DNA from: an uncultured Clostridium sp.
GTDB taxonomy: Bacteria; Bacillota; Clostridia; TANB77; CAG-508
NCBI GenBank assembly: GCA_948470025.1
Contig: CAOKNG010000004.1
Span: 1 to 62,863, forward strand
Reading direction: 5' to 3'
DNA: 62,863 nucleotides
Each line of letters begins with the position of its first letter. Position 1 is the stretch's first letter. The notes below the pieces were generated by a model. The model ran no database searches and had not been told where the DNA came from. It saw only the letters and a program-made list of their open reading frames with translations. This document shows positions 279 to 58,715 of this stretch, in pieces. A program made the translations under genes and the position numbers.

Positions 279-2646
279 TCATATGATTTCTAATCCGGCA
301 AATTTTGCCATGAGACGTTTATGTCCTGCTTTGTCGAAGGTGATGTCTACTTTTAGGTCGTTTCCTTCCTTTTCGACATAATTGATGGTGCCTTCTCCAA
401 ATTTTTTGTGGTATACTCGGATTCCTGCTTTGTATTTTGATAAGTCTAGTGTTTCTTCTTTTGGTTTTGTTAGTGAATTTAGGAAGCTTTCGGCACTTCT
501 AAATTGATAGGTGTTTGTTTTGTTTATTTGATTGTTTACTTGTCCTGCTTTTTCAGAGTTCATTTGGTAAGAAGTAACATGTTTATTGGTTTTTCCATAT
601 CCCCATGAATATGAGGAGTCTTCGAAGTTGTCTTGCTTTTTTGTGGTTATTTCTTGTAGTCCTTCTACTTTGTCTTCTGGAATTTCTTCTAAAAACCTTG
701 AAATGGAATTGTAACTAGTGGAACCAAATATGGTTCTATGTTTGGCACAAGTAAAAAATAGGTTTTCTTTGGCTCTTGTAATTCCTACATAGCAAAGTCG
801 TCTCTCTTCTTCTAATTCTTTTGGTTCTCCTATGGATTGTCTTCCTGGGAAAATTCCTTCTTCCATTCCTACTAAAAATACTGCTGGGAATTCTAGCCCC
901 TTAGCACTGTGTAAGGTCATTAAGGTAACACTGTCTTGTTCTTCTTCTAAGTTGTCAATATCGCTTGATAATGTAATGCTTTCTAAAAATTCTGCTAGCG
1001 TATTTTCTGCTGCTTGTTCTTCAAATTCAATGGCAACGGTTAGGAATTCTTCTAGGTTGGCAATACGGTTTTCGGCTTCAATGGTGTTTTCTAATTCTAG
1101 TGCTTTGGTATATCCTGTTTTGTTTAAGGTTTCTTTTATGAACTCGGAAATGGATAATTCTTTTTGCATTTGCCTTAATTCTTCGGTAATGGATATAAAG
1201 TCTCTGGAATTAGCATATACTCGGTTTAATCCATAGGTATCTGCTTGTTTAATTACTTCATACATGGATATTCCTTGGGTTTGGGCTATTTTTTGTACTT
1301 GTTCTAAGCTGGTTTTTCCAATACCGCGTTTTGGTTCATTGATAATACGTGTTAGGCTTAGGTTATCATTGGTGTTATGTAAAAATCTTAAATAGGCGAT
1401 GGTGTCTTTTATTTCCTTTCTTTCGTAGAATTTTAGTCCACCAATAATTTTATATGGTATATCTTCTCTTACTAAGATTTCTTCAATGGCACGGGATTGT
1501 GTGTTCATTCGGTAAAGAACAGCAATATCGGAATAGTGGTAATATTCTTGTGTTTTTAAGTGATTGATTTGTTCTACAATATAACGTGCTTCATCGTATT
1601 CATCTTCTGCTTGATAGGCTTTTGGAATATTTCCGTCTTCATTTTGGGTCCATAGTTTTTTATCATATTTTACTTCATTGTTTTTAATAACAGAATTTGC
1701 TGCATTTAATATGTTTTTAGTACAACGATAGTTTTGTTCTAATTTGATAATTTTGGTTCCTGGAAAGTCTCTTTCAAAGTTTAGAATGTTTGAAATGTCG
1801 GCTCCTCGAAAACTATAGATTCCTTGGTCATTATCACCGAACGACTGTAATATTGCCATACCTTGAGGCAAATAAGGATACTAACATAAATTGGGCTTTG
1901 TTGGTATCTTGGTACTCGTCTACTAATACATATTTGAATTTTTCTGAATAGTATTGTAAAACGTCTGGATTTTCGGTTAGGATTTTTATTGTAAAGTTAA
2001 TGATGTCATCAAAATCAAGAGCATTGTTTTGTTTTAGGCGTTTTTGGTATAGGGTATATACTGTCGCTATTTTTTCTTTTCGGAAGTCTCCATTTGCTCT
2101 TGCTGTGTAACTTTCTGGTTCTATCATTTCATTTTTGGCATTACTAATTTCGTAGGCAATGACACGGTCTGTAAACATTTTGTCATCAATTTCTAATTCT
2201 TTTAGACAGTTTTTTATCATTGTTTTTTGGTCGCCTGTATCGAAAATGACAAAAGAAGATTCAAATCCAATTCGGTCGATGTATCTTCTTAGAATTCTTA
2301 CACAAATGGAATGGAAAGTTCCCATCCATATGTCTTTTGCTTCTTCTCCCACTAAGGCTTCTACTCTTTCTTTCATTTCATTTGCTGCTTTATTGGTAAA
2401 AGTAATGGCTAAAATATTCCATGGCTTTACCTTTTTTTCTTGTACCAAATAGGCAATTTTATGGGTTAACACTTTGGTTTTCCCACTTCCTGCTCCTGCA
2501 ATTACTAAGCTTGGCCCTTCAAAATTAGTAACTGCTTCATATTGTTTATCATTTAATCCTTCTAATATTTCCATGTTTTCTCCTTTTGTTTTCCAAATTT
2601 TTGTTTGTGTTTTGTTTATTATATCCGATAAATTTAAAAAAATCAA
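279..2646 (-). CDS. pcrA: ATP-dependent DNA helicase, PcrA/UvrD family; reading frame steps +1 at in-frame CGG 1837-1839
   Basis: Overlapping ORFs 1834-2646 and 279-1871. Walker A AGAGSGKT and DEYQD are present. Helicase motif III is rebuilt across the junction (NITVV-GDNDQGIYSFRGAD). Confidence 0.9.
1837..1839 (-). other. in-frame CGG at ORF junction (GTT C GGT) in pcrA
   Basis: Upstream frame reads GTT CGG TGA. Skipping the C enters the downstream ORF frame at GGT. Confidence 0.85.
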
Positions 2647-2723
2647 TCATTTTTTGATTTTTTTAATTTATCAATCATACCAAAAAAGAGTAGCCTAATA
2701 TGCTACCCTTGCATTTTAACACT

Positions 2724-3435
2724 TTATTCATAAAAATAGGATATGATACCTGTATAGATGCCCCATGCTAGCTTATCTTGGTATTCTTCGCTCATCAATT
2801 TTTTTTCTTCCTCTTCATTTGATAAAAATCCACATTCTACAATGCTTGTTGGAATTTCTACATTTTTTATGATATAGACATTGTCTATTTTTAACGGTAC
2901 TCTTTTATTTTCTTTTTCGATGGCTTCATTTAAGGAATTTTGAATACTAGTAGCAAGTTTTTTTCCTTGTTCGTTTCCATCTTTGTAAAAGGTTTGCCAG
3001 CCATCATATTGTTCTTGTGGAATCTTGTTTAAGTGGATACTAACAAAGATGTCTGCACTTGATTCGTTTCCAATTTTTACTCGATTTTTGATGTCTGACG
3101 ATTTTTTTTGCTTTAAGGTTTTAGAATCTACATCATATATCGCATTGTCATCTGACCTAGTAAGAATAACATTGCATCCGCTTTGTTCTAATAATTTTTG
3201 CACTTTTAGTGTAATTGCTAAATTGGTTTTTGCTTCTGTAGTACCATTTTTTGACTGGGCTCCCTCATCTTCTCCGCCCATGACCAGCATCTAATATTAC
3301 GGTTTTTCCGCTCACTGGCAAACTTACGGTTTCTACGGTTTTATACATATAATTTGACCCAAATAGAAAGCTAAAGATGGAAAGAAATATCGCTCCTAAA
3401 ATGAGTAACATTCGTTTTCTTTGTAATAAAATCAT
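2724..3435 (-). CDS. cwlD: N-acetylmuramoyl-L-alanine amidase, CwlD-like (germination-specific type); +1 step at CGG 3274-3276
   Basis: N-terminal signal-anchor ORF from ATG 3435 ends ...ILDAGHGRRR*. Skipping the C gives DAGHGGEDEGAQS, the Amidase_3 signature, which continues into ORF 2724-3290. Confidence 0.8.
3274..3276 (-). other. in-frame CGG at ORF junction (GGG C GGA) in cwlD
   Basis: Upstream frame reads CAT GGG CGG AGA AGA TGA. The +1 frame reads GGA GAA GAT GAG. Confidence 0.85.
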
Positions 3436-3535
3436 GTCTTTCTCCTTATCTTCTTTTTGCTATATTATATGTTTCTATTTCTATTTTTATAACCACTTTA
3501 ATTGTAGAGGCATCTATTAGATACCTCTTGTATTA

Positions 3536-7885: not shown

Positions 7886-10800
7886 TTATAATACAAATTT
7901 TTTGATTAGGACAATTCCGCCTGCTAGTGTTACTAGGATGATTCCTGTTAGTGTAAAGTAGATGCTTGCTTCTCCTGTTTTGATGGCTAGTAGTACTGGG
8001 GCTTGGTCGATGTCGTCTTCTCCTGGTTTTTTGTTGTTTGGTGTTGAATCGATATCTGGTGTGTCTTCATATTCATTGTAGTCTTTGCTAATTTCTGCCC
8101 AGTTTACTTTTAAACCTAGATTATCTCCGCTATTTTCCCATGTTAGTACAATTTCAACAGTGGTACTTTCTCCTGGTTTTAATAATATGTCTTTGCATTG
8201 GTCGGTTACGACTTCTTTTTCACTAAGTTGTGTCCATTTTGGGTTATCATCAGCATTAAATCTTAATCCATCTGGAATATAGTCTTTGATTTCTTTTACG
8301 TATCCTTCAATTTCACCTTCATTGGTTACTTTTATTTTGTAACGGAATTTAACAGTTACTTGGTTTATTTTCTTTGCTTGTAAGTCTACTTTTACTACTG
8401 GTTCTGGGTTTTCATCTCCTGTGTGTCCTGTTTCGGTAATCACTTCATCTTTTCCAGCTTCTTTTACAATTGCTTGGCTTACCCATTTTTTAAGTGCTAA
8501 ATCAAAGTATTTTACTCTTACTTTTTCAATATCGATGTCGTCTTCGTCTGGGTCTTCGTTTCCTGGTGTTGAGTCTACATCATCGACTGGATCTCCTTCT
8601 TCGTCTGTGTCTTCTGAGATTTCTGCTGTGTTAATTAGAATTCGGTCTGATGTATTTGGTTCTGTTACTTTGAAAGCAATTTTTACATCTCTATGGTCTG
8701 GGTTGGTGTCGCTTAATTCTGCTTTTTTGTTAAATCCTTTTAGTAAATTTGCTCCTGCTTCTTTTTCTTGTTCTTTGGATAGATAATCGGTTGTGATTTT
8801 TTCGGCTTCTTCTACTTTGTCAGTTTCATTTCCATCTTTATCGATCATTTTCCAACGGTATTCTATGTTTGTTTCGTTTTCTGGTAAGAATACAAGTCCT
8901 TCTGGTAAGTCGTCTGTTACTTCGCTTGCATATCCTGCCATGGTTCCTTCGTTATAAATTCTAATGGTATAGGTTACGATGTTTCCATTGGCTACTAGTA
9001 CTGGCTCTTTGGTGTGGTCGTATTTAATGTTTCCATCTTCACCCATGCTTAAATTTGGATAACGGTTGTTGTAGTCTACAGTATTTACTTTGGTAATGAA
9101 TTTTCTTAGTGCTAAATCGAAGTATTCAATAACAACACTGTCAAAATCATCATCATCTTCTTGTCCTGGGATGTATTTATCTCCTTTGTCAATTTCCTCT
9201 TGTTTATAGTTTGGTAAGTTTTCATCTTCTGGTAGTTTTACATTATCTTCGCTAGAGTCTACGTCTTTTACTTCGTGTCCATCTGCATCAGTAAATTTTG
9301 TAATTTCTGCAATGTTTACTACTCTATCGCTATATTTTGGATCATTTGTTACTACTTTACAGTTTACACTAATTTCTTTATATGATAATGTCGTTCCATC
9401 AAATGCTTTTATTAAGTTGTTTTCGCTTCTTTCTTTTGATAGGTAATCGGTTTTGATGGTTCTATGAGTTTCATCGCTTTCATCATATACCCATCCTTTT
9501 GCAATATTTTCTTCATCCTCTGGTAAGAATTCTAATTGCGCTGGTAAGTGGTCTGTAATTTCACTTGCATATCCATCTTTTGGTCCTTCATTATATACTC
9601 TTATGGTATAGGTTACAATGTCTCCTACTCGTACGGTAAGTGGTGCTTTTGGATGGTTGTAGGTTGCGGTTGTTGTGGTTCCTGCTTGCAATCCTGAAAT
9701 GTCTACTATTGGTTCACGGCTAACATCTGGCACTTTTCCATTAACTGCTGTAATGAATTTTCTTAAAGATAAGTCGAAGTAGATAATTCTTACATTATCA
9801 AAATCATCATCGTCTTGTTGTCCTGGAATATATTCGTCCCCTCTGTTTATTTCATCTAATTTGTAGTTTGGTAGAGTATCATCTGGTGGTAACACTACAT
9901 TTCCACCTTGTGAATCACGATCTGTTACTGGATTTCCGTATTTATCACTAAACTTGGTAATATCAGCAATGTTCACAATTCTCTTTTCAAAGGTAGGTGG
10001 TGCAATGACTTTACATTTTACTTTTACTTCTTTGTAATCTAATGTATTTCCATTAAATGCTTTTATGATATTGTCGCTATCTACATCTCTTGATAGATGT
10101 GATGTTTTGATGGTTCTTAATGAAGTATCACTTTCATCATAGTACCATCCATTGGCAATGTTTTCTTCATCATCTGGTAAGAATTCTAATTGTGCTGGTA
10201 AGTGATCTGTAATTTCGTTTACATATCCATCTTTTTGTCCTTCATTATATACTCTTATCGTATAGGTTACAATGTCTCCTACTTCCACTGATAGTGGTGC
10301 TTTTGGGTGATTGTATATAGCAGTCGTTGAGGTTCCTGCCTTTAGACCTGTTATATCAACAACTGGTTCACGGCTTGTTTTTGGTGCTTCTCCATTGACT
10401 GCACTTATGAATTTTCTTAAAGATAAGTCGAATGGTTTTACTTTAATATAAACACTATCAAAATCGTCATCGTCTTGTTGTCCTGGAATATATGGGTCTT
10501 TACGATTGATTTCTGTTTGTTTATATCCTGGTAATGTACTGTCTGTTGGTAATTGTACGTTGTTTTTTTGTGAATCGCGATCTGTAATAGGATTTCCGTT
10601 TTTATCGGTAAATTCTGTAATATCTGCAATATTAACGATTCGTTTTCCTTCTTGTGTAGTTTCTTTTAATTTACATCTTACTTTAATGTCTTTGTAGTTT
10701 AAGGTGTCTCCACCATCATATGCTAAAATTAAATTGTTTTCGCCATTTGCTTTTGATAAATAGTTTGTTTTGATGGTTCGGTTACTTGGATCGCTTGAAT

Positions 10801-12391
10801 CATAAACCCATCCATAGGATTTGTTTACACTATCATTTGGTAAAAATTCTAACTCTGGTGGTAAGTGGTCTGTAATTTCGGTTGCATATCCATCTTGTTT
10901 TCCTTCATTATATACACGTATGGTATAGGTAATAAGGGAACCTTCATTTACTTCTAATGGTGCTTTTGTATGATTATATGTTGCTGTTGTTTTTCTTCCT
11001 GCTTTTAAGTCTGTTACATCAACTTGTGGTTCACGGCTTACGGTTGGTACTTTTCCATCTACTTCACTTATGAATTTTCTTAAAGATAAGTCGAATGGTA
11101 ATGGTGTTGGTATTTTAATACTATCTGTTGCAGTATAGGATTGTGGTCCTTTTTCTACTAATACAACTGGTTGCTCATCGGTATGTAATGTATTTGGTTT
11201 ACTTTTTGTATAATAATATGCTGATGTTCTTTGATAACTTATCTCTATATTAAATTGAATGGTTTTTCCTGCTTCACTTTCTGGTACTCTTACATAAAAA
11301 TCTTGGTTTAAAGGAATTTGATTATTGGCTACTGGATTTTTATTTGCATCTAATAAAGTGTAGTTTGCACCAGAAAATCCTAGTTTATTTGTGGTATAAG
11401 CAAGGTCTGAGTTTCGATTAATTCTGTAAGGTCCTACAATATAGTTTCCATTATTATCTGGTAGCGTTTGTACCCTTGTTTTATCAAAGCTTAATGGTGA
11501 TACTGCATCTTTTGATTCATATGCTCCTTGTTTGTTTGCTTCTGTTATTAAATATTGATATAATTTGTTACAATCTTCACTACGATATCTTCCATATTCA
11601 TATCCACTATTCCAGTCTGCACTATTTTCAAACCAATCTGAAAATACTTTATATTCTTGATCACGACCAGTCCAACCATTAAATAGTAAATTTGATAATG
11701 CTGAAGTATGATAATTTGAATCCTCTACATTAGTAAAATACCAAATCGCCATTTGTTGTATCACTTCAATATCATCATCTGTAATAAGTACACAATTATC
11801 TCCTTCTTGTATATTTCCAAGTTTAAAATCTGTATCAGTAACATATCTTATATTTTGTGTAGACGTAATTATTCCTGATTTTAACAATAAGTCTTCCTTT
11901 TCACTTTCATTACTTTGTTTTGGCAAATACATGTGATCTAATAGCCACATTACTTTATTGTAAGCAGTTGGGTCAGACTTAAATACATCGATTGCTTGCA
12001 AACGTGCTAATACATCTTGTTTTTGAGATTTCATATCGTATTTTAAATCATAGGTTCTTTGTTCTGTTGAGGTATTTGCATTGCCATCTTGTAATGCAAA
12101 CCCATATTCTGCTTTTAAACAATAAAAAGCATTTGCATATGAAATTGTATAATCTCCTTCTCTTGGATAGGATACAATCTTCCATATTTTTTTATTTGGC
12201 ATTCCAGTGGTTTTTAGTCCCCCAAACCCATATGCTGCTCCTTTTTTTCCATTTTGTGCCTCTCTTACATTGGTTAAGCCCAATACGTAGTTATCTTTTT
12301 CTGCATATGTATTTTTTGTATTTATGGTTAAGGTTGCTATTAAAACAATTATCATCACCATAAGTATTCCGATTCTTTTTTTCAGTTTCAT
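7886..12391 (-). CDS. Surface adhesin: signal peptide, thioester (TQxA-type) domain, five tandem ~200-aa DUF11-like repeats, C-terminal sorting-signal-like anchor
   Basis: 1501 aa. FYCLKAEYGF plus QQMAIWYF (Cys/Gln thioester signature). Repeats begin FDL(S/A)LRKFI...VTYTIRVYNEG. C-terminus is IKTGE + TM helix + KKFVL. Confidence 0.75.
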   Translation of the reverse strand: MKLKKRIGILMVMIIVLIATLTINTKNTYAEKDNYVLGLTNVREAQNGKKGAAYGFGGLKTTGMPNKKIWKIVSYPREGDYTISYANAFYCLKAEYGFALQDGNANTSTEQRTYDLKYDMKSQKQDVLARLQAIDVFKSDPTAYNKVMWLLDHMYLPKQSNESEKEDLLLKSGIITSTQNIRYVTDTDFKLGNIQEGDNCVLITDDDIEVIQQMAIWYFTNVEDSNYHTSALSNLLFNGWTGRDQEYKVFSDWFENSADWNSGYEYGRYRSEDCNKLYQYLITEANKQGAYESKDAVSPLSFDKTRVQTLPDNNGNYIVGPYRINRNSDLAYTTNKLGFSGANYTLLDANKNPVANNQIPLNQDFYVRVPESEAGKTIQFNIEISYQRTSAYYYTKSKPNTLHTDEQPVVLVEKGPQSYTATDSIKIPTPLPFDLSLRKFISEVDGKVPTVSREPQVDVTDLKAGRKTTATYNHTKAPLEVNEGSLITYTIRVYNEGKQDGYATEITDHLPPELEFLPNDSVNKSYGWVYDSSDPSNRTIKTNYLSKANGENNLILAYDGGDTLNYKDIKVRCKLKETTQEGKRIVNIADITEFTDKNGNPITDRDSQKNNVQLPTDSTLPGYKQTEINRKDPYIPGQQDDDDFDSVYIKVKPFDLSLRKFISAVNGEAPKTSREPVVDITGLKAGTSTTAIYNHPKAPLSVEVGDIVTYTIRVYNEGQKDGYVNEITDHLPAQLEFLPDDEENIANGWYYDESDTSLRTIKTSHLSRDVDSDNIIKAFNGNTLDYKEVKVKCKVIAPPTFEKRIVNIADITKFSDKYGNPVTDRDSQGGNVVLPPDDTLPNYKLDEINRGDEYIPGQQDDDDFDNVRIIYFDLSLRKFITAVNGKVPDVSREPIVDISGLQAGTTTTATYNHPKAPLTVRVGDIVTYTIRVYNEGPKDGYASEITDHLPAQLEFLPEDEENIAKGWVYDESDETHRTIKTDYLSKERSENNLIKAFDGTTLSYKEISVNCKVVTNDPKYSDRVVNIAEITKFTDADGHEVKDVDSSEDNVKLPEDENLPNYKQEEIDKGDKYIPGQEDDDDFDSVVIEYFDLALRKFITKVNTVDYNNRYPNLSMGEDGNIKYDHTKEPVLVANGNIVTYTIRIYNEGTMAGYASEVTDDLPEGLVFLPENETNIEYRWKMIDKDGNETDKVEEAEKITTDYLSKEQEKEAGANLLKGFNKKAELSDTNPDHRDVKIAFKVTEPNTSDRILINTAEISEDTDEEGDPVDDVDSTPGNEDPDEDDIDIEKVRVKYFDLALKKWVSQAIVKEAGKDEVITETGHTGDENPEPVVKVDLQAKKINQVTVKFRYKIKVTNEGEIEGYVKEIKDYIPDGLRFNADDNPKWTQLSEKEVVTDQCKDILLKPGESTTVEIVLTWENSGDNLGLKVNWAEISKDYNEYEDTPDIDSTPNNKKPGEDDIDQAPVLLAIKTGEASIYFTLTGIILVTLAGGIVLIKKFVL

Positions 12392-13760: not shown

Positions 13761-14201
13761 GTTGTTATGAATTAGCACATTTGCAAGCGCTTTTTTACGG
13801 CTTGCAGAAAGGACTACTATGAAAAAAGTAGTATCTCGGAGTATTCATGTAATCCTCCAAAGAGGACCACGTGGTCCGGATAGATTGTTTTAATTTTTGT
13901 AACCCGTTACTTTTGATTTTTGAAAGGAGACTAATCCAAATGAAAGCAAGAGGCGAGCCCGTATGGGCTAATACTAATACAAAAACAAACAATCTTATGG
14001 TAGCTGCTACTGGCGAGAGCACGAGAGCCGCTTTGCAGTGGGGCAGAGAAGACTTCAGGGGGCGTTCCCTGATCCAGGTAAACTTACAGGCATAACGGGG
14101 TCCGGCTTTGACACGTATGGTGTAAGAGAGGTTGGTAGCACCTCTAAATCCTAATAAAAAAGCTACGAGGAGACCTATTTAAGAGGTCTCCTCATTTTTT
14201 T
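13761..14201 (+). ncRNA. Candidate structured RNA of unknown class (about 440 nt) with its own promoter and terminator
   Basis: Promoter TTGACA-17-TATGAT at 13726-13754. Locally GC-rich with many short hairpins (ggaccacgtggtcc, gtaacccgttac, agcccgtatgggct). Ends at hairpin 14167-14193 plus T-run. No + strand gene follows. Confidence 0.4.
14167..14201. terminator. Bidirectional rho-independent terminator (shared by the + strand RNA and the minus-strand fadD-like gene)
   Basis: gaggagacc / ggtctcctc stem, with an A-run upstream and a T-run downstream. Confidence 0.7.
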
Positions 14202-23705: not shown

Positions 23706-26700
23706 CTATTCTACAATATTCGCATTTCTTACCTCTTCTATTAATGGTGATTCTGCTTCTTCTAATTCTAGGTCTAATTCTGGCTCTTCTTCTGTTTCGG
23801 TATTAATCTTAATGCTTTTATACTTATTCATTCCTGTTCCTGCTGGAATTAGCTTTCCAATAATAACGTTTTCTTTTAGTCCTATTAATGGATCTACTTT
23901 TCCTTTAATTGCAGCTTCGGTTAATACTCTTGTGGTCTCTTGGAAGGATGCTGCTGATAGGAAGGATTCTGTTGCAAGAGATGCTTTGGTAATTCCAAGC
24001 AACGTACGTTTTCCAGTTGCTGGGCGTTTTCCCTCGGCTTCTACTTCTTTATTTTTGTCTGCAAATTCGTACATGTCAACTAATGAGCCTGGGAACATGT
24101 CGGTATCACCATTGTCTTCCACTCTTACTTTTTTAAGCATTTGTCTTCCAATAACTTCAATGTGTTTGTCGTTAATATCAACACCTTGGTTACGGTATAC
24201 TTTTTGTACTTCTTGAATTAGGTATTCGTATACGCCTTCTGGTCCTTTGATTAGTAAGATTTCGTTTGGATTGATAGAACCTTCTGTAATTTGGTCTCCT
24301 GCTTCTAATTCGTCTCCGTCTTTTACACGTAGTTTAGAACCAAATGGAATGGTGTAAGTTTTTGAGTCGTCTTTTGATGTTACAATTACTTCTTTCTTTT
24401 TCTTGTTTTCTGCTATTTTTACTTTTCCTGCAATTTCAGTGATGATGGCAAGACCCTTTGGTTTTCTTGCTTCAAATAGTTCTTCAACCCTAGGAAGACC
24501 TTGTGTAATATCTCCTCCTGCAACACCACCTTGGTGGAAGGTTCTCATGGTTAACTGGGTACCTGGTTCACCAATGGATTGTGCTGCGATAATTCCAACG
24601 GCTTCTCCTATGTTTACTTCGGTTCTAGTCGCAAGACCCATTCCGTAACATTTTGCACATACTCCATGTTTTGAATGACATCCTAGTGCAGAACGTACTT
24701 TTACTTTTTCAAATCCTGCTTCTACGATTTTTTCTGCTATTTTGTCAGTAATCATGGTGTTAGTGTCTACAATGACTTCTTTGGTTTTTGGGTTGATGAT
24801 GTCTTCTAATGGGTATCTTCCTTCTAGTCTTTCTTGTAGTTTTTCGATAACTTGGTTTCCGTCTTTTATGTCATAGACTAAAATTCCTTCATGGGTTCCA
24901 CAGTCATGTTCACGAACAATGATGTCTTGGGATACGTCTACTAATCTTCTGGTTAGGTATCCAGAGTCTGCGGTTCTAAGCGCTGTATCGGCAAGTCCTT
25001 TTCTTCCTCCATGGCTTGATACGAAGTATTCTAGTGGGTCAAGTCCTTCACGGAAAGAGGAACGAATTGGGATTTCTACGGCTTTACCAGAGGTGTTTGC
25101 CATTAGTCCTCTCATTCCTGCTACTTGGCGTAATTGGTTCATGTTTCCACGAGCTCCAGATTCAATCATCATGTAGATTGGGTTTAATTCATCAAAGTTA
25201 TCTTGCATTGCAAGGGATACATCCTGTGTTGCTTGTTCCCATACTTTAATAACGGATTCATAGCGTTCGTCTTCGGTGATTAAACCACGTTTATATTGTT
25301 TTGCAATGTGTTCTACTTTTTCTTCTGCTTCGGCTAAGATATCTTGTTTCTTTTCTGGAATGATAATATCTTTTGTGCTAACTGTAATAGCACCTTTTGT
25401 TGAGTATTTGTATCCAGTGTCTTTGATGTAGTCTAGTAGTTCAGAGGCTCTGGATAGTCCATGTACATTAATACATTTTGCAACGATTTTTCCTAGGTTT
25501 TTCTTGATAACTGGGAAATCGATTTCTAAATCAAATTCGTGTTCTGGGTCAGTTCTATCGACAAATCCTAAGTCTTGTGGTATTCCTTGGTTATAAATGA
25601 CTCTTCCTACTGTGGTTTGGATTCGTTTTGAACGAACATTTCCTTCTTCATCCTGAGCACTCATACGGATATATACTTTAGCATGTAGTCCTAAGTCTCC
25701 GTTGGCATATGCCATTAGGGCTTCGTCGATATCTTTATAATAACTTCCTTCTCCTGGTTCTCCTTTTACTTCCATGGTTAGGTAGTAACTTCCTAAAATC
25801 ATATCTTGGGTTGGAACGGTTACTGGTTTACCATCTTGTGGTTTTAATAAGTTGTTTACTGATAGCATTAAGTATCTTGCTTCTGCTTGTGCTTCTGGTG
25901 ATAATGGTACGTGTACTGCCATTTGGTCTCCATCGAAGTCGGCATTGAAGGCGGTACATACTAATGGGTGTAGTTTGATGGCTCTTCCTTCTACTAATAC
26001 TGGCTCGAAGGCTTGTATTCCAAGTCTATGTAGTGTTGGTGCACGGTTTAGCATAACTGGGTGGTCTTTAATAACTTCTTCTAAGATGTCCCATACTTCT
26101 GGTCTTAGTCTTTCTACCATTCTTTTGGCATTTTTGATGTTATGTGCAATGCCTCTTCCTACTAATTCTTTCATAACAAATGGTTTGAATAGTTCCACTG
26201 CCATTTCTTTTGGTAGACCACATTGGTAGATTTTTAGTTCTGGTCCAACAACGATAACGGAACGTCCTGAGTAGTCAACACGTTTTCCAAGTAAGTTTTG
26301 ACGGAAACGTCCTTGTTTTCCTTTTAGTAAGTCAGATAGTGATTTTAGCGGTCTATTTCCTGCACCTGTTACTGGTCTTCCACGTCTTCCGTTGTCGATT
26401 AGGGCATCAACGGATTCTTGTAACATTCTTTTTTCGTTTCTTACAATGATTTCTGGTGCTCCTAATTCTAGTAGTCTTTTTAAACGGTTGTTACGGTTGA
26501 TTACACGGCGGTATAGGTCGTTTAAGTCAGAGGTTGCAAAACGTCCACCATCTAGTTGTACCATTGGTCGTAGGTCTGGTGGGATGACTGGTACAACATT
26601 CATAACCATCCATTCTGGTTTGTTGCCAGATAGACGGAATGATTCTACCGTGTCTAAGCGTTTTACTAATTTTACTCTTTTTTGCTCACTGGCTCCTTCT

Positions 26701-27365
26701 AGTTCTTTTTTAAGTTTAGCTGCTAATTTGTCTACATCGATTTCTTGTAATAGTTTTTGAATGGCTTCTGCTCCCATTTCTGCTTTGAAAGAACCTCTTC
26801 CGTATTTTTCTTCTGCTTCATGGTATTCTTTTTCGGTTAGGACTTGGGTTTTGATTAGTCCTGAGGTTCCTTTGTCGGTTACGATGTAAGAGGCAAAGTA
26901 GATTACTTTTTCTAAGTTTCTTGGTGAGATGTCTAACATTAAAGCGACTCTACTTGGAATTCCTTTGAAGTACCAAATGTGTGCAACTGGTGCTGCAAGT
27001 TCAATGTGTCCCATTCTTTCTCTTCTTACTTTGGCTTTGGTAACTTCTACACCACAACGGTCACAGACAATTCCTTTATAACGTACTCTTTTGTATTTAC
27101 CACAATGGCATTCCCAGTCTTTGGTTGGTCCAAAGATTCTTTCACAAAATAGTCCGTCTTTTTCTGGTTTTAAGGTTCTGTAATTGATGGTTTCTGGTTT
27201 TTTAACTTCTCCTTTTGACCATTCTCTAACCTTTTCGTCTGATGCTAGACCAATTTTTAATTTATCAAATATCTCTAATTCATCCACGGTTTGTTTTTTC
27301 TCCCTTCCGGTTTGGATTTTTTGGTTTGTCTCTGTTTTTTCTTGTTTATTTACACTGCTGTACAA
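23706..27365 (-). CDS. rpoC: DNA-directed RNA polymerase subunit beta'
   Basis: Unmistakable RpoC sequence (NADFDGDQM, zinc-binding Cys clusters). The true start may be GTG 27287, preceded by GGAAGGGAG, rather than ATG 27365. Confidence 0.97.
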
Positions 27366-27473
27366 TTTATGGTTGCTATAAACAGGAATATAAGAGGCTT
27401 ATTCAATTACAAGAACCCCCAGTCTGCTTCGCAGACAGCCCCCTTAAGTAAAGGGGCCTTTACTCTACTTTTT

Positions 27474-27530
27474 ATTCTATCGCATATAATGATTTGTAAG
27501 TGGCAAAGCCACTAACACAATCATTATATG
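27474..27530. repeat. Compound hairpin, copy a (inner stem agtggc/gccact inside outer stem catataatgatt/aatcattatatg)
   Basis: Homologous copies at 31757-31806 and 56566-56617 carry compensatory stem changes. Confidence 0.6.
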
Positions 27531-27880
27531 TTTAGCACTTGGTTGATTTGGTTACATACTTGGGTGAAGTTGGTTTGTATGTCTTTGTTTTTGTAGCGTA
27601 ATACGGTTAAGTTGTATGCGTTTAATAGGTCTGTTCGTATTTTGTCGTATTCTTTTCCATCTACTGTATAGTGTTGGTTTCCGTCTATTTCTATAATGAG
27701 TTTCTTTTTAGGGCAGTAAAAATCTACAATATAGTTTTCTATAATTTTCTGTCTCGTAAAGCGATATTGGTTTTTACTTAAAAATTCATACCAAATTTTT
27801 CTCTCCTCTGGTGTCATATTATTTCGTAAAACTCTCGCTCTCTCCACATACTCCTTATTATATCGAATATACATTGCCAA
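27524..27880 (-). CDS. DUF559 (Vsr-like PD-(D/E)XK) endonuclease domain protein
   Basis: 118 aa with the family pattern LR..MT.EE..(I/L)W......RF.RQ..I..YIVDFYC....LIIEIDG..H.....YD..R...L......VLR. Confidence 0.8.
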   Translation of the reverse strand: MAMYIRYNKEYVERARVLRNNMTPEERKIWYEFLSKNQYRFTRQKIIENYIVDFYCPKKKLIIEIDGNQHYTVDGKEYDKIRTDLLNAYNLTVLRYKNKDIQTNFTQVCNQINQVLNI

Positions 27881-27966
27881 CCTCCATCATAAACAGTAGA
27901 GTAAAGGCCCCTTTACCTAAGGGGGCTGTCTGCGAAGCAGACTGGGGGTTCTTTTAGTGTCTTTTA

Positions 27967-30900
27967 CTAAATCATATCATTGTCATTTGCTAAATTGTCT
28001 TCACCTAAATCGGTGTCTTCTAATAGCATTTCGTCTTCGTCGTCTAAGATTGGGTCATCGAATAATTCGTCTGATTCTTCTTCATCGTCTACGATTTCGT
28101 TTCCGTCTTCGTCTTCTTCCATGTAGCCATCTGCTAGTTCGTCTTCTACTAAGATGTTTTGGGCTTTGTCTTTTTCTGGGTTGTATTCAATTCCTTCTTC
28201 AATGTTTTCTTTTAGTTCTAATTCTTGGTTATCGCTTGAGTATAGACGAACATCTAGTCCTAAGCTTTGTAGTTCTTTTACTAGTACTTTAAAGCTTTCT
28301 GGTACTCCTGGTTCTGGTACATTTTCGCCTTTTACAATGGCTTCATAGGTTTTTACACGTCCTACGGTATCGTCTGATTTTACGGTTAGAATTTCTTGTA
28401 GGGTATGTGCTGCACCATATGCCTCTAATGCCCATACTTCCATTTCTCCAAAACGTTGTCCTCCAAATTGTGCTTTTCCTCCTAGTGGTTGTTGGGTAAC
28501 TAATGAGTATGGTCCAGTAGAACGGGCATGGATTTTGTCGTCTACTAAATGGTGTAGTTTTAACATGTACATAACACCAACGGTTACTGGATGGTCGAAT
28601 TTTTCTCCAGTTCTTCCGTCGTATAGTGTTACTTTTCCGTCTGGGGTACGTCCTGACTGTTCTAGTAATTCGGTAATTTCTTCTTCAGAAGCTCCGTCAA
28701 ATACTGGGGTTGCTACTTTCCAACCAAGTTCTCTAGCAGCTGCTCCTAAATGGACTTCTAACACTTGACCTAAGTTCATACGAGATGGTACACCAAGTGG
28801 GTTAAGAACGATATCGACTGGGGTTCCATCTGGCATAAATGGCATGTCTTCTACTGGCAAGATTCTTGATACAACACCTTTGTTTCCATGTCGTCCTGCC
28901 ATTTTATCTCCAACCGAGATTTTTCTTTTTTGTGCAATATAGCAACGAATGACTTGGTTTACCCCTGGTGCTAATTCATCAGAATTGTCTCTTGTAAAGA
29001 TTTTGACATCTACAATGGTTCCTTCTTCTCCATGTGGTACTCTTAAGGAGGTATCTCTTACTTCTCTTGCTTTTTCTCCAAAGATGGCACGTAGTAATCT
29101 TTCTTCTGCAGTTAATTCGGTTTCTCCTTTTGGTGTTACTTTTCCAACTAGGATGTCTCCTGGTCTTACTTCTGCTCCAATACGGATAATTCCATTTTCG
29201 TCTAAGTCTTTTAAGCTATCTTCTCCTACGTTTGGAATGTCTCTTGTAATTTCTTCTGGTCCTAATTTTGTATCACGGCATTCGCAATCATATTCTTCAA
29301 TGTGGATAGAGGTATATACGTCTTCTTTTACTAATCTTTCGCTAATTAGTACCGCATCTTCGTAGTTGTAACCTTCCCATGTTGCAAAGGCGATTAGTAC
29401 GTTTTTACCTAGTGCCATTTCTCCTTTATCAGTAGATGGTCCATCTGCAATAACGTCTCCTGCTTTTACTTTTTCTCCTTTTACAACAATTGGTCTTTGG
29501 TTGATACAGGTTCCACCATTGGTTCTTTTGAATTTACGTAAATGATAGGTTTCTAAGTCTCCTTTTTCGGTTTTTAGAACGATTTCATCACCAGTTACTT
29601 TATGAATGGTTCCATTGGATTTTGCAATTTGCATAATTCCTGAGTCTTTGGCTGCACGGTATTCAATTCCAGTTCCTACAATTGGTGATTCTGGTACCAA
29701 TAGTGGAACGGCTTGACGTTGCATGTTTGCTCCCATTAAGGCACGGTGAGCATCGTCATGCTCTAGGAATGGTATCATGGCTGCACCAACGGATACTAAT
29801 TGTTTTGGCGATACGTCTACATAGTCTACCATTTCAGGGGCTACTTCTTCGATATCGTCTAAGTGTCTTACTTTGATTTTTTTGCCTACAAAGTTTCCGT
29901 TTTTATCAATTTGTTCAGAAGCTTGTGCAATTCTTGCTCCTTCTTCGTCTTCTGCACTTAAATATTTTACTTTCTCTGTTACTTTATGGGTGTTAGGGTC
30001 TACTACACGGTATGGTGTTTCCACAAATCCATATTCATTGATGATGGCAAATGAGGTTAGGGCAGAGATTAATCCAATGTTTGGTCCTTCTGGGGATTCG
30101 ATTGGACATAAACGTCCATAATGGGTATAGTGTACGTCTCTTACCTCGAAACCTGCTCTTTCTCTTGAAAGTCCACCTGGTCCTAAAGCAGATACCCTTC
30201 TTTTATGGGTTAACTCGGATAATGGATTGGTTTGATCCATGAATTGTGATAATTGGGAGCTTCCAAAGAATTCACGGATTGATGATGTGATTGGTTTTGT
30301 GTTAATTAAGGTTTGTGGGGTTACAACATCTAGGTCTTGAATGGTCATTCTTTCACGAACCACTCTTTCTAGTCTGGTTAAACCAATTCGGAATTGGTTT
30401 TGTAATAGTTCACCAACACAACGAATACGTCTATTTCCTAAATGGTCGATGTCATCTATGTATCCTAGTCCATGTTGTAGGTTCATTACATAGTTAACCG
30501 ATGCAATGATGTCTTCTGTGGTAATATGTTTTGGAATTAATTCTCCCATTCTTTCTTGAATCATTTTTTCTACGTCTTTTTTGTCTGTATTTTCTAAGAT
30601 ATTTTGTAGAATGGCAAAATTAACATCTTCTTTTATGACAATATTTTTTAGGGTTACATATTCATGAATGTCTACTGTACCATTTCCAATGACTTTAACA
30701 GCTTTTTCTCCTACTTTTACATCTACGGAATTGATTCCTGCATTTTGAATTTGTCTTGCTAGCTCTTCTGTAATAACACCATCTTTTTCTACTAAAATTT
30801 CTCCAGTAGATGGGTTCATAATGTCGTTTGCTGCTACTTGGTTTTTAATTCTTCCAGCTAATCCTAGTTTTTTGTTGAATTTGTATCTTCCTACTTTTGC

Positions 30901-56407: not shown

Positions 56408-56581
56408 ATGAATGGCTATTACCCAAACCGAAGACCTTGTAATAATGGTTGCCCTAGAAAAAATTTTAATTTTTCACAAAAAAAAGAGAACGCTCTTTGT
56501 TCTCTTTATCAAGTAGAAAATTTTTTATGCCAGTTTTCGAAGGCTTTAAAATGTTTCAATTTTTATAAATGGTTGTGTTAA
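56408..56581 (+). CDS. 57-aa cysteine-rich hypothetical protein (below the ORF-track length cutoff)
   Basis: RBS AAAGGTGGA and 7 Cys residues. The stop codon lies inside compound hairpin copy c. Confidence 0.35.
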   Translation: MNGYYPNRRPCNNGCPRKNFNFSQKKENALCSLYQVENFLCQFSKALKCFNFYKWLC

Positions 56582-56617
56582 TGGCTTCGCCATTTACAAA
56601 CCATTATATGCGTTAGA
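56566..56617. repeat. Compound hairpin, copy c
   Basis: ataaatggttgtgttaatggcttcgccatttacaaaccattatatgcgttag. Both stems differ from copy a by paired (compensatory) substitutions. Confidence 0.6.
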
Positions 56618-56626
56618 ATCATTTTT

Positions 56627-57471: not shown

Positions 57472-58680
57472 CTACTCACTTATCATCCATGCTCCACTCG
57501 CGTCTTTGCTACTTGTCTGGATATTCGATTTTAGATATACTATTGGACGCACCGCCAAACCATCGTCATACTCGCTCAAAAAGCTCGAATTGCCGCCACA
57601 CAAGTAGTCGCTGTCCGCACAGCCCTCATGCACAAAGAACACATCGAAGTCCGCACGCTCTGAATCCGAAAAGACACCACGAGATGCTACCCTGTATACT
57701 AGGTCATTGTTTCCAAATAACATTTTATATATTGCACTTTCTGCATCTGTTAAATATTCTGAACCTTGGTACCCGTATCCTGTAAATTTGTCTGTTCTCT
57801 CTGTTGCACTGCTTGATGCTCCTGTTTCGGTTGTCTTCGTTGGGTAGTATATCGTATGTGTATATTCTTCCCCATATTTATAGGTTGTTCCATCTTCATC
57901 CCATGTGAATGTAGTTGGGTCGAATTTGGTTATTTGGTTAATATCGTCTACCGTTATACTTCTTGCTCCACTTCCTGTTATCGTTCCTGTACTTAAACCT
58001 TCTACTACATCTCCTGTTTGATAACGAAATGTTTTACTTGTATTTGCTCCTTTTCCATACCCATATATTTTACAGATTTCATTTAGTTCTTGTTCATAAT
58101 ATAAATATCCTATTGCTCCATTCATAGTAAGTTCATGTATTGGTGTTTCACTGATTAATACGACTTCTCCTGTCGTCTCATCTTTGCTTAAGACTCTCCA
58201 TTTTGTATTACTTTCTACGCTAAAAGTTTGTTCACTATCTCCATTTCCATGTGACATTCCTGTTCCCTTTGGTGATGTATAGCTTAGTTTGCTTGTGTCT
58301 GTTACTCCCGCAGTTGGGTCGTATGCTACATAATCTCCTATTTCTACTTTCTTTGCTAGTGCATTTTCCGGTAGTGGTTCGCTACTTCCTCCTCTATTTA
58401 TTCCGTCTATGATATCATCTGCTTCTTTTAGGAAATCTGCTAATGCTTCGTCTTCTCTTTTTGCTGCTTCTTGGTAGTTTCTTCCTGCTTCTTGGGCTCT
58501 TGTTAATATCCCTCTTTGTCCTACCGTTAGGTTGATGGTAATTGCTGCTAGGATTAATAGAATGATTATTGTGATTACGAGGGCTATTAATGTGATTCCT
58601 CTTCGGGCAGACACAAGGCCTGCCCCTACATTCGGTTTACATAGTTTTTCGGTTTCGGTTAATTTTCTTTCTTTTTTCAT
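57472..58680 (-). CDS. Pilin/pseudopilin-like secreted protein (prepilin-type N-terminal hydrophobic segment) with a GC-rich C-terminal module
   Basis: ATG 58680 preceded by GAAGGAGG. ...RRGITLIALVITIIILLILAAITI resembles a class III signal peptide. A REP-like hairpin is embedded in the leader. Confidence 0.5.
   Translation of the reverse strand: MKKERKLTETEKLCKPNVGAGLVSARRGITLIALVITIIILLILAAITINLTVGQRGILTRAQEAGRNYQEAAKREDEALADFLKEADDIIDGINRGGSSEPLPENALAKKVEIGDYVAYDPTAGVTDTSKLSYTSPKGTGMSHGNGDSEQTFSVESNTKWRVLSKDETTGEVVLISETPIHELTMNGAIGYLYYEQELNEICKIYGYGKGANTSKTFRYQTGDVVEGLSTGTITGSGARSITVDDINQITKFDPTTFTWDEDGTTYKYGEEYTHTIYYPTKTTETGASSSATERTDKFTGYGYQGSEYLTDAESAIYKMLFGNNDLVYRVASRGVFSDSERADFDVFFVHEGCADSDYLCGGNSSFLSEYDDGLAVRPIVYLKSNIQTSSKDASGAWMISE
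58605..58629. repeat. GC-rich REP-like hairpin GGGCAGACACAAGGCCTGCCCCTAC inside the pilin-like leader coding region
   Basis: Same core as 39825-39849. Translated as VGAGLVSA. Confidence 0.6.
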
Positions 58681-58715
58681 TTTTTTCTTTTGCCTCCTTC
58701 TTATATTTTTTTGCC

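What the first reader, a model, noticed from the sequence alone, without database searches (positions are those of the whole stretch)
27411..27953. DUF559 endonuclease cassette with 58-bp terminal inverted repeats inserted between rpoB and rpoC
SEEN: the rpoB stop (27967-27969) and the rpoC start are separated by a 543-bp unit. Its ends, 27411-27468 and 27896-27953, are reverse complements with a single mismatch. Each arm holds two GC-rich hairpins (gtctgc-ttc-gcagac, and gtaaagg-cc-cctttac / gccccctt-aagt-aaggggc). The inner arm boundaries read CTAC...GTAG. The unit encloses one gene, a 118-aa DUF559 (Vsr-like PD-(D/E)XK) protein co-oriented with rpoBC. ESTABLISHED: rpoB and rpoC are normally adjacent and co-transcribed. 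REP-associated transposases (RAYTs) are typically flanked by inverted REPs carrying a GTAG tetranucleotide. INFERENCE: this looks like a selfish or domesticated nuclease cassette of a kind I cannot place. It may be the nuclease associated with the GTAG-hairpin family scattered through this window. In a read-through rpoBC transcript the arms would form a 58-bp duplex. That is an obvious RNase III substrate and could uncouple the rpoB and rpoC mRNAs.
Basis: partly seen in the sequence, partly recalled or inferred. Interest (0 to 1): 0.75.

Follow-up and report, generated by a model that had tools for sequence, protein, structure and literature searches.

The report
Hairpin-flanked DUF559 nuclease cassette in rpoBC
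A small nuclease gene of unknown function, bracketed by two inverted copies of a conserved double-hairpin repeat, sits between the two large RNA polymerase genes; the same gene-plus-repeat pairing recurs across gut Clostridia and resembles the known REP-RAYT partnership, but with a different kind of enzyme.

Summary
A 549-bp unit (27408-27956) lies 10 nt after the rpoB stop and about 120 nt before the true rpoC start (GTG at 27287). It consists of a 68-nt arm, a Shine-Dalgarno site, a 116-aa DUF559 (Vsr-fold) gene, a nested AT-rich hairpin, and the inverted arm.

The arms are not private to this locus. They belong to a conserved two-hairpin repeat family (AACCCYCAGTC-stem1-GACAGCYCCCTT-loop-AAGGGRGC) with strong covariation. 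It has no Rfam match and is spread as solo copies, doublets and arrays through intergenic DNA of many gut Clostridia.

About half of related DUF559 genes (39 of 80) are flanked by these modules, against 5 of 130 neighbouring ORFs.

The cassette comes and goes at orthologous sites. It fills rpoB|rpoC in two sister species and is absent from two relatives of about 78% DNA identity. A 78%-identical cassette fills carA|carB, which is empty in a relative with 93%-identical CarA.

The gene is under purifying selection as strong as rpoB (pN/pS 0.033).

Best reading: a REP-RAYT-like partnership that uses a PD-(D/E)XK nuclease. That the nuclease acts on the modules is inferred, not shown. The window's GTAG hairpins are a different family.

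The parts
27967..31707 (-). rpoB (RNA polymerase beta), stop TAG at 27967-27969
   Evidence: ORF list; six Rpb2 Pfam domains
27957..27966 (-). 10-nt gap between the rpoB stop and the arm. It reads TAAAAGACAC and is followed by TAAAAGAACCCCC, so TAAAAGA occurs twice in direct repeat. In sister locus L001 the rpoB stop TAA is itself the first bases of the arm.
27889..27956 (-). Upstream arm: a CAG-class two-hairpin module (core 27897-27954), read 5'->3' on the - strand, with the AACCCCC end pointing outward
   Evidence: Inverted repeat; covariance model R1 score 69.3 bits, E 3e-19; folds into two hairpins
27881..27885 (-). Shine-Dalgarno GGAGG, 6 nt before the ATG of the DUF559 gene
   Evidence: read directly from the sequence
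27524..27874 (-). DUF559 (Vsr-fold PD-(D/E)XK) endonuclease gene, 116 aa plus stop; the only copy in the window
   Evidence: Pfam PF04480 E 5.5e-30. PDB profile hits 3hrl E 3e-22 and 3r3p. AlphaFold2 pLDDT 87.5 and Foldseek top hits 3hrl and 3r3p. Invariant D51, E62, D64, H68, D77, R80. Single copy by tblastn. pN/pS 0.033 against L001.
27476..27530 (-). Nested 47-nt AT-rich hairpin with a GC tip, overlapping the DUF559 stop. It belongs to a second repeat family (other copies at 31763-31799 and 56568-56619) and is absent from the carA|carB cassette.
   Evidence: (z -8.3)
27408..27475 (+). Downstream arm: the same CAG-class module (core 27410-27467) on the opposite strand
   Evidence: Inverted repeat; R1 score 68.8 bits
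27288..27407 (-). Native rpoB-rpoC spacer carrying the rpoC ribosome-binding site; about 85% identical to the L001 spacer
23706..27287 (-). rpoC (RNA polymerase beta'), start GTG at 27287 by homology
   Evidence: Pfam; start aligned with L001, L143 and L144

Best explanation
The unit belongs to a family of cassettes in which a small stand-alone DUF559 (Vsr-fold PD-(D/E)XK) endonuclease gene is bracketed by an inverted pair of a conserved ~58-nt two-hairpin repeat module. The same modules are scattered as solo copies, gene-less doublets (about 170 nt, REPIN/MITE-like) and arrays through intergenic DNA of many gut Clostridia.

Shown:
- The cassette entered the rpoB-rpoC spacer right at or after the rpoB stop codon. 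This happened in the common ancestor of two sister species (about 89% DNA identity) and after their split from relatives of about 78% identity.
- A close relative of the cassette sits between carA and carB in another lineage, whose near relatives have an empty junction.
- The gene has its own Shine-Dalgarno site. No promoter-like or terminator-like signal stands out against shuffled sequence.
- The gene is co-oriented with the operon.
- The gene has stayed under purifying selection as strong as that on rpoB and rpoC.

Inferred:
- The gene is translated from read-through rpoBC transcripts.
- The nuclease recognises the folded modules through their invariant single-stranded motifs AACCCYCAG and GACAGC next to structure-only stems. 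It nicks or cuts them as extruded hairpins or single-stranded DNA.
- Host replication or repair then copies or relocates the modules, and occasionally the whole cassette. This would be the counterpart of the REP/REPIN-RAYT partnership, but with a hydrolytic PD-(D/E)XK enzyme in place of a HUH tyrosine transposase.
- In the rpoBC messenger the two arms can also pair into a roughly 60-bp duplex. That may be processed, but this is a side effect rather than the reason the element exists.
For: - Inverted repeat and gene.
- The arm is a widespread family.
- Both stems covary. Stem 1 shows AU 75 / GC 42 / UA 8 / CG 5 and CG 63 / GC 53. In the model-fitted alignment, 95% of cells pair and 216 cells changed on both sides, against 69 in shuffles (0 of 500 shuffles reach this), and slid controls collapse.
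- Within single cassettes the two arms differ by compensatory changes in stem 1 (L001 and L005).
- Modules show no strand bias relative to transcription, 38:35. This argues for a DNA-level element.
- Gene-centred sample: 39 of 80 DUF559 loci have a module within 160 nt and 21 have one on both sides. For other ORFs in the same loci the counts are 5 of 130 and 0 of 130. Odds ratio 24, P 7e-15.
- Every inverted pair spaced 200-400 nt encloses DUF559 or its pseudogene. Wider pairs enclose ordinary host genes.
- Decay series: a truncated pseudogene (L073) and gene-less doublets, one of which (L041) keeps the DUF559 leader sequence.
- Presence/absence at rpoB|rpoC and at carA|carB.
- The 39 flanked loci lie in 32 distinct flank contexts.
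- pN/pS is 0.033, against 0.033 for rpoB and 0.041 for rpoC.
- Fold and catalytic residues.
- Independent literature: 'DUF559 domain-containing protein' is 14-fold enriched among genes overlapped by inverted-repeat pairs (PMC9881135).
Against: - No biochemical or in-vivo evidence that DUF559 binds or cuts the modules; the link is purely physical association.
- A hydrolytic PD-(D/E)XK nuclease cannot by itself perform strand transfer, so the copying step is unexplained.
- Two opposite topologies exist: modules pointing inward, as here, in 6 of 21 loci, and pointing outward in 12 of 21. This is unlike a classical transposon with fixed ends.
- Half of the related DUF559 genes have no detectable module.
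- This window holds no solo module in 62.8 kb, so activity in this genome is not demonstrated.
- Insertion boundaries and any target-site duplication could not be resolved.
- Many modules sit at orthologous positions in different species, so they are old and stable.
Confidence: 0.5

Rival explanations
1. Free-standing homing endonuclease ('intron-less homing', as known for phage T4 seg/mob genes; from my own knowledge). The DUF559 gene sits between highly conserved genes and cleaves the junction in genomes that lack it. It is then copied in by recombinational repair, using the conserved neighbours as homology. Under this reading the hairpin modules are incidental or act as insulators.
For: - The closest solved relatives include the Vsr-like homing endonuclease I-Bth0305I.
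- The cassette lies between conserved gene pairs, rpoB|rpoC and carA|carB, with clean presence/absence among relatives.
- It is co-oriented with its hosts, 23:7.
Against: - It does not explain the abundant solo modules and gene-less doublets, or why modules bracket the gene so consistently.
- Strong purifying selection has continued after fixation in two species. That is not what the classical homing cycle predicts.
- The 32 flank contexts were not typed by gene, so it is not known whether cassettes generally lie between conserved housekeeping pairs.
Confidence: 0.15
2. Passenger model. The two-hairpin modules are mobilised or generated by some other enzyme, or by replication slippage or recombination. 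DUF559 is merely a small gene that such repeats tend to surround, and its own role lies elsewhere (repair, restriction-like defence).
For: - Half of the related DUF559 genes lack modules.
- Modules also populate many ordinary operon spacers.
- PADLOC gives weak matches to restriction-type nuclease domains.
- A hydrolytic nuclease is not a transposase.
Against: - The enrichment is 24-fold over neighbouring ORFs, and both-sided flanking is seen only for DUF559.
- The fit is tight and stereotyped. Modules lie 1-20 nt from the ORF, one module class supplies the GGAGG ribosome-binding site, and the stop codon lies inside the TAAGAACCC tip.
- Gene and arms moved together between rpoB|rpoC and carA|carB.
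Confidence: 0.17
3. Domesticated RNA-level device. The arms exist to form a long duplex or local hairpins in the rpoBC transcript. An RNase III site or RNA stabiliser there would uncouple or tune rpoB and rpoC expression, and the ORF would be secondary.
For: - The predicted minimum-energy fold pairs the arms over about 60 bp, z -14.
- Between the sister species the arms are 91-96% identical, while synonymous sites of the flanking genes differ at 26-43%.
Against: - The family shows no strand bias relative to transcription.
- Within-arm covariation shows selection on each arm's own hairpins, not on arm-arm pairing.
- Relatives manage with a plain 120-205-nt spacer.
- The ORF itself is strongly constrained.
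- The same cassette occurs in unrelated operons.
Confidence: 0.1
4. Invertible switch. The 68-nt inverted repeats mediate flipping of the DUF559 gene, turning its read-through expression on or off.
For: - DUF559 proteins are 14-fold enriched among predicted programmed-inversion targets (PMC9881135).
- Both orientations relative to neighbouring genes occur across loci, 23:7.
Against: - Every copy of this cassette seen (window, L001, L002, L003, L004, L076) is in the same orientation relative to its operon.
- No recombinase gene lies next to it.
- The literature enrichment is equally expected from simple inverted-repeat flanking.
Confidence: 0.05

Closest known systems
REP/REPIN-RAYT systems (repetitive extragenic palindromes and their REP-associated tyrosine transposases)
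   Same: - Short structured palindromic repeats are dispersed in intergenic DNA as singles, inverted doublets and clusters.
- A small nuclease gene is bracketed by inverted copies of the same repeat.
- The nuclease is under purifying selection and inherited vertically between sister species.
- Only one copy was seen in the DNA available.
   Different: - The enzyme is a Vsr-fold PD-(D/E)XK hydrolase (DUF559), not a HUH/Y1 transposase.
- The repeat unit is a two-hairpin module with long invariant unpaired motifs shared across several families of Clostridia. It is not a species-specific single hairpin with a GTAG tag.
- Two opposite gene/module topologies occur.
MITEs and their parent TIR transposons (for example Correia elements, IS630/Tc1-type TA targeting)
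   Same: - Terminal inverted repeats.
- Gene-less derivatives that keep the ends and part of the leader sequence.
- Insertion into short operon spacers.
- TA-rich tips (TAnAAGAACCCCC).
   Different: - No DDE or serine/tyrosine transposase is present.
- No target-site duplication could be established.
- The arms are selected for their own hairpins.
- Solo half-elements are the commonest form.
Vsr-like (EDxHD) homing endonuclease I-Bth0305I, and free-standing homing endonucleases of T-even phages
   Same: - Same fold and catalytic core.
- A selfish nuclease gene wedged between or inside conserved genes, with presence/absence polymorphism.
   Different: - It lies in no intron or intein.
- It is chromosomal in bacteria and almost absent from viral collections.
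- It carries flanking repeats that also exist without the gene.
E. coli YcjD (DUF559) and the GC-rich dispersed repeat beside it (which I recall as 'BoxC'; that name is from memory)
   Same: A stand-alone DUF559 gene whose 3' end runs into a GC-rich palindromic repeat, with an inverted copy 154 nt downstream. That repeat has a median of 16 places per E. coli genome.
   Different: - The repeat sequence is different.
- The window protein scores 68 bits against the YcjD model, below its cutoff of 218.
- The association in E. coli rests on a single locus and was not analysed further.
CGTC-tagged REPs (Di Nocera et al. 2013, PMC3733652)
   Same: A hairpin repeat super-family for which the authors state that no dedicated transposase is known. 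One module class here begins its first stem with CCGTC.
   Different: Those are single 8-9-bp-stem hairpins with a CCA tail, found mainly in alpha-Proteobacteria. No test of relatedness was made.

Membership tests
DUF559 / Vsr-like PD-(D/E)XK nucleases (Pfam PF04480) | Match to the family profile above the curated cutoff | tested here: met
   103.9 bits against a cutoff of 20.6, E 5.5e-30, covering positions 4-108 of the 109-position profile
DUF559 / Vsr-like PD-(D/E)XK nucleases (Pfam PF04480) | Vsr-type restriction-endonuclease-like fold | tested here: met
   AlphaFold2 model with pLDDT 87.5. Foldseek top hits are 3hrl (TM 0.83 on target) and 3r3p; Vsr structures 1cw0 and 1vsr appear lower in the list.
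DUF559 / Vsr-like PD-(D/E)XK nucleases (Pfam PF04480) | Conserved acidic and histidine catalytic residues | tested here: met
   D51, E62, D64, H68, D77 and R80 are invariant in 48 homologues
DUF559 / Vsr-like PD-(D/E)XK nucleases (Pfam PF04480) | Nuclease activity | not testable with these tools
   Needs purified protein
REP/REPIN-RAYT system | Dispersed intergenic palindromic repeats in many copies | tested here: inconclusive
   Met for the family: at least 118 loci, with several contigs per genome in other Clostridia. In this window only the two cassette arms exist, and the rest of the genome was not available.
REP/REPIN-RAYT system | Nuclease gene flanked by inverted copies of the repeat | tested here: met
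REP/REPIN-RAYT system | The nuclease is a HUH/Y1 (IS200/IS605-like) tyrosine transposase | tested here: not met
   The protein is DUF559 with a Vsr fold
REP/REPIN-RAYT system | Conserved GTAG tetranucleotide at the repeat's 5' end | tested here: not met
   The family-wide invariant motifs are AACCCYCAGTC and GACAGC. CTAC/GTAG occurs only in the subfamily extension CCTTTACTCTAC.
TIR transposon / MITE | Terminal inverted repeats | tested here: met
   68 nt at 96%; 67 nt at 97% in L003
TIR transposon / MITE | Target-site duplication | tested here: inconclusive
   TA or TTATAT flanks are possible but cannot be told apart from an extension of the inverted repeat. The empty-versus-filled alignment has fuzzy edges.
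TIR transposon / MITE | Encoded transposase (DDE, serine or tyrosine) | tested here: not met
   The only ORF is DUF559
TIR transposon / MITE | Non-autonomous, gene-less derivatives | tested here: met
   Doublets in L040, L041, L124, L140, L068 and L108, and the pseudogene in L073
Homing endonuclease genes | Residence in a group I intron or an intein | tested here: not met
   The gene is intergenic between rpoB and rpoC. Rfam at E <= 10 gave only sub-threshold hits to unrelated sRNA and miRNA families.
Homing endonuclease genes | Cleavage of the cognate empty site | not testable with these tools
   Empty junctions are identified (L225, L226, L229; L143, L144), but cleavage needs an assay
Any curated RNA family (Rfam 15) | Covariance-model match to the arms | tested here: not met
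   Nothing at gathering score. Only chance-level hits, none to the arms' own structure, at E <= 10.

The most novel reading that the evidence does not exclude
Stand-alone DUF559 nucleases are the cognate enzymes of 'orphan' structured intergenic repeats. This would be a second, non-HUH repeat-nuclease partnership parallel to REP-RAYT. It would cover the Clostridial two-hairpin modules described here, and possibly E. coli YcjD with its adjacent GC-rich repeat and other REP classes that lack a known transposase. It would give a function to a very large family of unknown function and a mechanism to repeat families whose spread is unexplained.
Probability: 0.35. Interest if true: 0.85.

Novelty: new variant of a known kind. 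Interest (0 to 1): 0.72.

Why it matters
DUF559 is a large, widespread family with solved structures but no assigned role. Short structured intergenic repeats are common in bacteria, and several classes have no known mobilising enzyme.

A tight, statistically strong and phylogenetically recurrent pairing of the two makes both questions directly testable, by protein-on-hairpin assays and by genetics in culturable hosts. Supporting the pairing are decay series and filled/empty orthologous sites.

Locally, it shows that a selfish or domesticated nuclease gene can reside for a long time inside the rpoBC operon of a gut Clostridium. It is translated from its own ribosome-binding site on what is inferred to be the polymerase messenger. 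Its arms can form a roughly 60-bp RNA duplex between the two essential genes.

Tried and rejected
- **Exact look-up of the window's DUF559 protein:** not on record. I used the 97%-identical P0001 instead.
- **Rfam, at gathering and permissive thresholds:** no family for the arms.
- **The idea that the arms are the window's GTAG hairpins:** rejected. Model R1 misses all five GTAGGGG hairpins.
- **Simple TIR alignment on P0055 loci:** it found nothing. Model R1 later detected the downstream arm, and reading the sequence showed a diverged upstream arm of the other module class. Two module classes were then confirmed across loci.
- **L142 as an empty rpoB|rpoC site:** too distant, about 70% identity. 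L143 and L144 were used, but their spacers do not align base for base.
- **Target-site duplication:** TA or TTATAT candidates, and a 15-20-nt carA-tail duplication, could not be distinguished from low-complexity similarity.
- **Remnants of DUF559 in the L228 carA|carB spacer:** none found, only a degenerate solo arm.
- **Phage or virus carriage:** two weak protein hits and two module hits among 2.9 million viral contigs. The element is not phage-borne.
- **Strand-specific terminator role for modules:** rejected as a general role, because orientation is 38:35. Some copies are followed by T-runs.
- **Literature:** no paper links DUF559 or ycjD to repeats. The only trace is an undiscussed enrichment in an inversion screen.
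- **Defence-system models:** only weak domain-level hits.
Full report
**1. Observation**

All three genes lie on the - strand:
- rpoB at 27967-31707
- a DUF559 ORF at 27524-27880
- an rpoC ORF from 27365 down to 23706

Pfam confirms all three. DUF559 scores 103.9 bits, E 5.5e-30. The repeat finder returns one outstanding inverted repeat: arms 27408-27475 and 27889-27956, 68 nt, 96% complementary.

Three details need correcting.
- The likely start of the DUF559 gene is ATG 27874, with GGAGG 6 nt upstream, which gives 116 aa.
- rpoC starts at GTG 27287 by homology with three related loci. About 120 nt of native spacer with the rpoC ribosome-binding site therefore follows the unit.
- Between the DUF559 stop and the downstream arm lies a separate 47-nt AT-rich hairpin. 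It belongs to another small repeat family with copies at 31763-31799 and 56568-56619.

**2. The arms belong to a large family**

Three related cassettes showed an invariant core around a variable first stem. A pattern built from that core is AACCCYCAGTC-N8-16-GACAGCYCCCTT. All come from Clostridia assemblies, nearly all uncultured; most name gut, rumen or faecal sources. The named taxa include Oscillospiraceae, Ruminococcus, Lachnospiraceae, 'Clostridium sp.' and Flintibacter muris. Most hits are solo, and many genomes contribute several contigs.

The module is about 58 nt. Stem 1 has an invariant GTC/GAC base and a freely covarying top. Stem 2 is GCYCCCTT/AAGGGRGC.

Covariation is strong in a plain MAFFT alignment. 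Pair types are AU 75, GC 42, UA 8, CG 5 for one position, and CG 63, GC 53, AU 9, UA 5 for another. It is also strong in the model-fitted alignment:
- 95% of cells pair.
- 216 cells changed on both sides, against 69 in shuffles (0 of 500 shuffles reach this).
- Controls with slid partners collapse.
- The stem-2 pair is UA 71 / CG 67.

Within single cassettes the two arms differ by compensatory changes in stem 1 (L001 and L005). Selection therefore acts on each arm's own hairpins, not merely on arm-arm complementarity.

Rfam has no such family. A covariance model, R1, finds only the two cassette arms in the whole window when run with filters off. The GTAGGGG hairpins at 7742, 7844, 58629, 58741 and 58922 are a different family.

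**3. Link between modules and DUF559**

*From the repeat side.* Six of the 118 arm-seeded loci carry a DUF559 gene, and in each case it lies directly against a module. Every inverted module pair spaced 200-400 nt encloses DUF559 or a truncated pseudogene of it. Wider pairs enclose ordinary host genes such as rnhB or mnmA-iscU.

*From the gene side.* I sampled 80 metagenomic loci encoding relatives at 41-59% identity. Of these, 39 have an R1 hit within 160 nt and 21 have one on both sides. Other complete ORFs in the same loci score 5 of 130 and 0 of 130. The odds ratio is 24, P 7e-15.

*Two topologies occur.*
- Modules pointing inward, as in this window: 6 loci, with both arms of the 'CAG' class.
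- Modules pointing outward: 12 loci. The upstream module is usually of a distinct 'CCG' class, whose reverse complement supplies the GGAGG ribosome-binding site. The downstream module is usually CAG, and in L038 its TAAGAACCC tip holds the stop codon.

Gene-less doublets of both polarities are common: 9 inward and 24 outward at a spacing of 40 nt or less. The inward ones that I read through (L040, L041, L124, L140, L068, L108) are CAG + spacer + reversed CCG, about 170 nt long. One of them (L041) keeps the sequence that precedes the DUF559 start codon. So a decay series runs from full cassette through pseudogene to doublet.

Modules show no strand bias relative to transcription, 38 same to 35 opposite. 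That argues for a DNA-level element rather than a strand-specific RNA signal.

**4. Mobility**

L001 and L002 come from a sister species (88.6% DNA identity over 9.4 kb). They carry the cassette at the same place, and there the rpoB stop TAA is the first three bases of the arm. The next relatives found, L143 and L144 at about 78% identity, have plain spacers of 205 and about 120 nt. Neither spacer shows a DUF559 ORF or the arm motif when read through.

A cassette 78% identical in the gene and about 90% identical in the arms lies between carA and carB (L003, L004, and genome locus L076). The state of that junction differs among relatives:

| Locus | CarA identity | State of carA\|carB |
|---|---|---|
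| L003, L004, L076 | reference | full cassette |
| L225, L226 | 93% | empty; stop and start 14 nt apart |
| L229 | 87% | empty; about 20 nt apart |
| L228 | 88% | degenerate solo arm right after the stop, no gene |

The filled site carries about 577 extra bases. The edges are AT-rich, and neither the exact ends nor a target duplication could be fixed.

The 39 module-flanked loci fall into 32 different flank contexts. L001 also has a truncated solo module (939-981) that the window lacks. The element is essentially absent from phage and viral collections.

**5. State of the gene and its expression**

Between the window and L001 the DUF559 gene has pS 0.43 and pN 0.014, a ratio of 0.033. That equals rpoB (0.033) and is close to rpoC (0.041). 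The protein is therefore functional and constrained, not a decaying remnant.

The fold and catalytic residues are those of Vsr-like PD-(D/E)XK nucleases. The closest solved relatives are 3hrl and the homing endonuclease I-Bth0305I.

No promoter-like or terminator-like signal stands out above shuffled sequence; the two terminator-like calls are stem 2 of each arm. The gene has its own Shine-Dalgarno site. Across loci it is co-oriented with both neighbours 23 times and opposed to both 7 times. I infer expression by read-through of the host operon.

A read-through RNA is predicted to pair the arms over about 60 bp (-199 kcal/mol, z -14). Each arm alone forms its two hairpins.

**6. Interpretation**

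The best-supported reading is a repeat-plus-nuclease partnership built like REP/REPIN-RAYT, but using a hydrolytic Vsr-fold enzyme.

Shown:
- the architecture
- the family-wide structure of the modules
- the statistical association
- the decay series
- the filled and empty sites
- the selective constraint

Inferred:
- that the protein recognises and cuts the folded modules
- that host repair or replication then spreads them

The copying step is the weak point, because such a nuclease cannot transfer strands by itself. The two opposite topologies also do not fit a classical transposon. Rivals are free-standing homing, passenger gene, RNA-processing device and invertible switch. Each explains part of the data, and each is listed with its tests.

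**7. Comparison with what is known**

Architecture matches REP-RAYT, but membership fails on the defining enzyme class and on the GTAG tag. TIR-transposon and MITE features are met for the ends and the gene-less derivatives. They fail on the transposase and are unresolved for target duplication. Homing endonuclease membership fails on intron or intein residence.

In the searchable literature no paper links DUF559 to repeats. Two published observations fit the pattern:
- 'DUF559 domain-containing protein' is 14-fold enriched among genes overlapped by inverted-repeat pairs in a screen for programmed inversions. The authors do not discuss it (PMC9881135).
- One REP super-family is stated to lack a dedicated transposase (PMC3733652).

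A lead beyond Clostridia: in E. coli K-12 the DUF559 gene ycjD ends inside a GC-rich palindromic repeat, with an inverted copy 154 nt downstream. That repeat has a median of 16 places per genome across 5426 E. coli genomes. I recall it as 'BoxC', but the name is from memory.

**8. Limits**

- Only 62.8 kb of the source genome was available, so copy numbers in this organism are unknown.
- Model-fitted alignments lean towards the model's structure, although the MAFFT alignment shows the same covariation.
- The novelty claim rests on an open-access literature search only.

Noticed in passing
window 27476-27530, 31763-31799, 56568-56619: A second small repeat family: a 47-nt AT-rich hairpin with a GC tip (GTGGC-AAA-GCCAC). 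One copy is nested in the cassette over the DUF559 stop, one lies just upstream of rpoB, and one lies after a gene ending at 56627. Copies identical over 24-26 nt also occur in L066 and L116.
   Followed up: partly
window 7742(+), 7844(-), 58629(-), 58741(-), 58922(-): Five REP-like hairpins that start with GTAGGGG. Two form an inverted pair about 100 nt apart, and one lies inside the 5' extension of the ORF 57472-58734. The arm model does not detect them. No associated transposase was looked for.
   Followed up: partly
window 27957-27973: Just after the rpoB stop, TAAAAGA occurs twice in direct repeat (TAAAAGAcacTAAAAGAACCCCC). The sister locus L001 has a single copy, which also serves as the rpoB stop. 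This is either a 10-bp duplication in one lineage or a deletion in the other.
   Followed up: no
L232 (E. coli K-12 NC_000913.3 1351000-1351800): The DUF559 gene ycjD ends inside a GC-rich palindromic repeat. An inverted copy lies 154 nt downstream, and a partial duplicate of the ycjD 3' end sits between them. The repeat has a median of 16 places per genome in 5426 E. coli genomes.
   Followed up: partly
L228:3566-3630: In a species with 88%-identical CarA, a degenerate solo module (with the CTCTAC extension) follows the carA stop directly. About 270 nt of unrelated non-coding DNA come next, with no DUF559. This is either an independent hit on the same junction or a decayed cassette.
   Followed up: partly
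L194 and L196, about 1940-3500: A DUF559 gene embedded in a long tandem array of alternating + and - modules, period about 188 nt, with at least six units on either side.
   Followed up: no
L001:939-981 versus window about 33550-33610: A truncated solo module (first hairpin only, preceded by a GGTTCTT...AAGAACC hairpin) is present in the sister species and absent from the window at the orthologous intergenic spot. The window also has about 550 bp there that L001 lacks, overlapping ORF 32826-33377.
   Followed up: partly
window 13940-14100: A GC-rich island (above 60% GC in a 33% GC genome) downstream of tRNA-Gly and tRNA-Cys, followed by a strong terminator hairpin at 14160-14200. It has no Rfam match. 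It can be read as a roughly 50-codon ORF with a GGAG site upstream.
   Followed up: partly
window 7886-12391 (-): A 1501-aa predicted surface protein with about five tandem repeats of roughly 220 aa (DNA period 654-663 nt), a signal peptide and a C-terminal membrane anchor.
   Followed up: no
window 57472-58734 (-): The ORF finder's N-terminal extension of this pilin-like protein is a translation of GTAG-type hairpin repeats. The real start is probably further downstream, near the hydrophobic segment.
   Followed up: no
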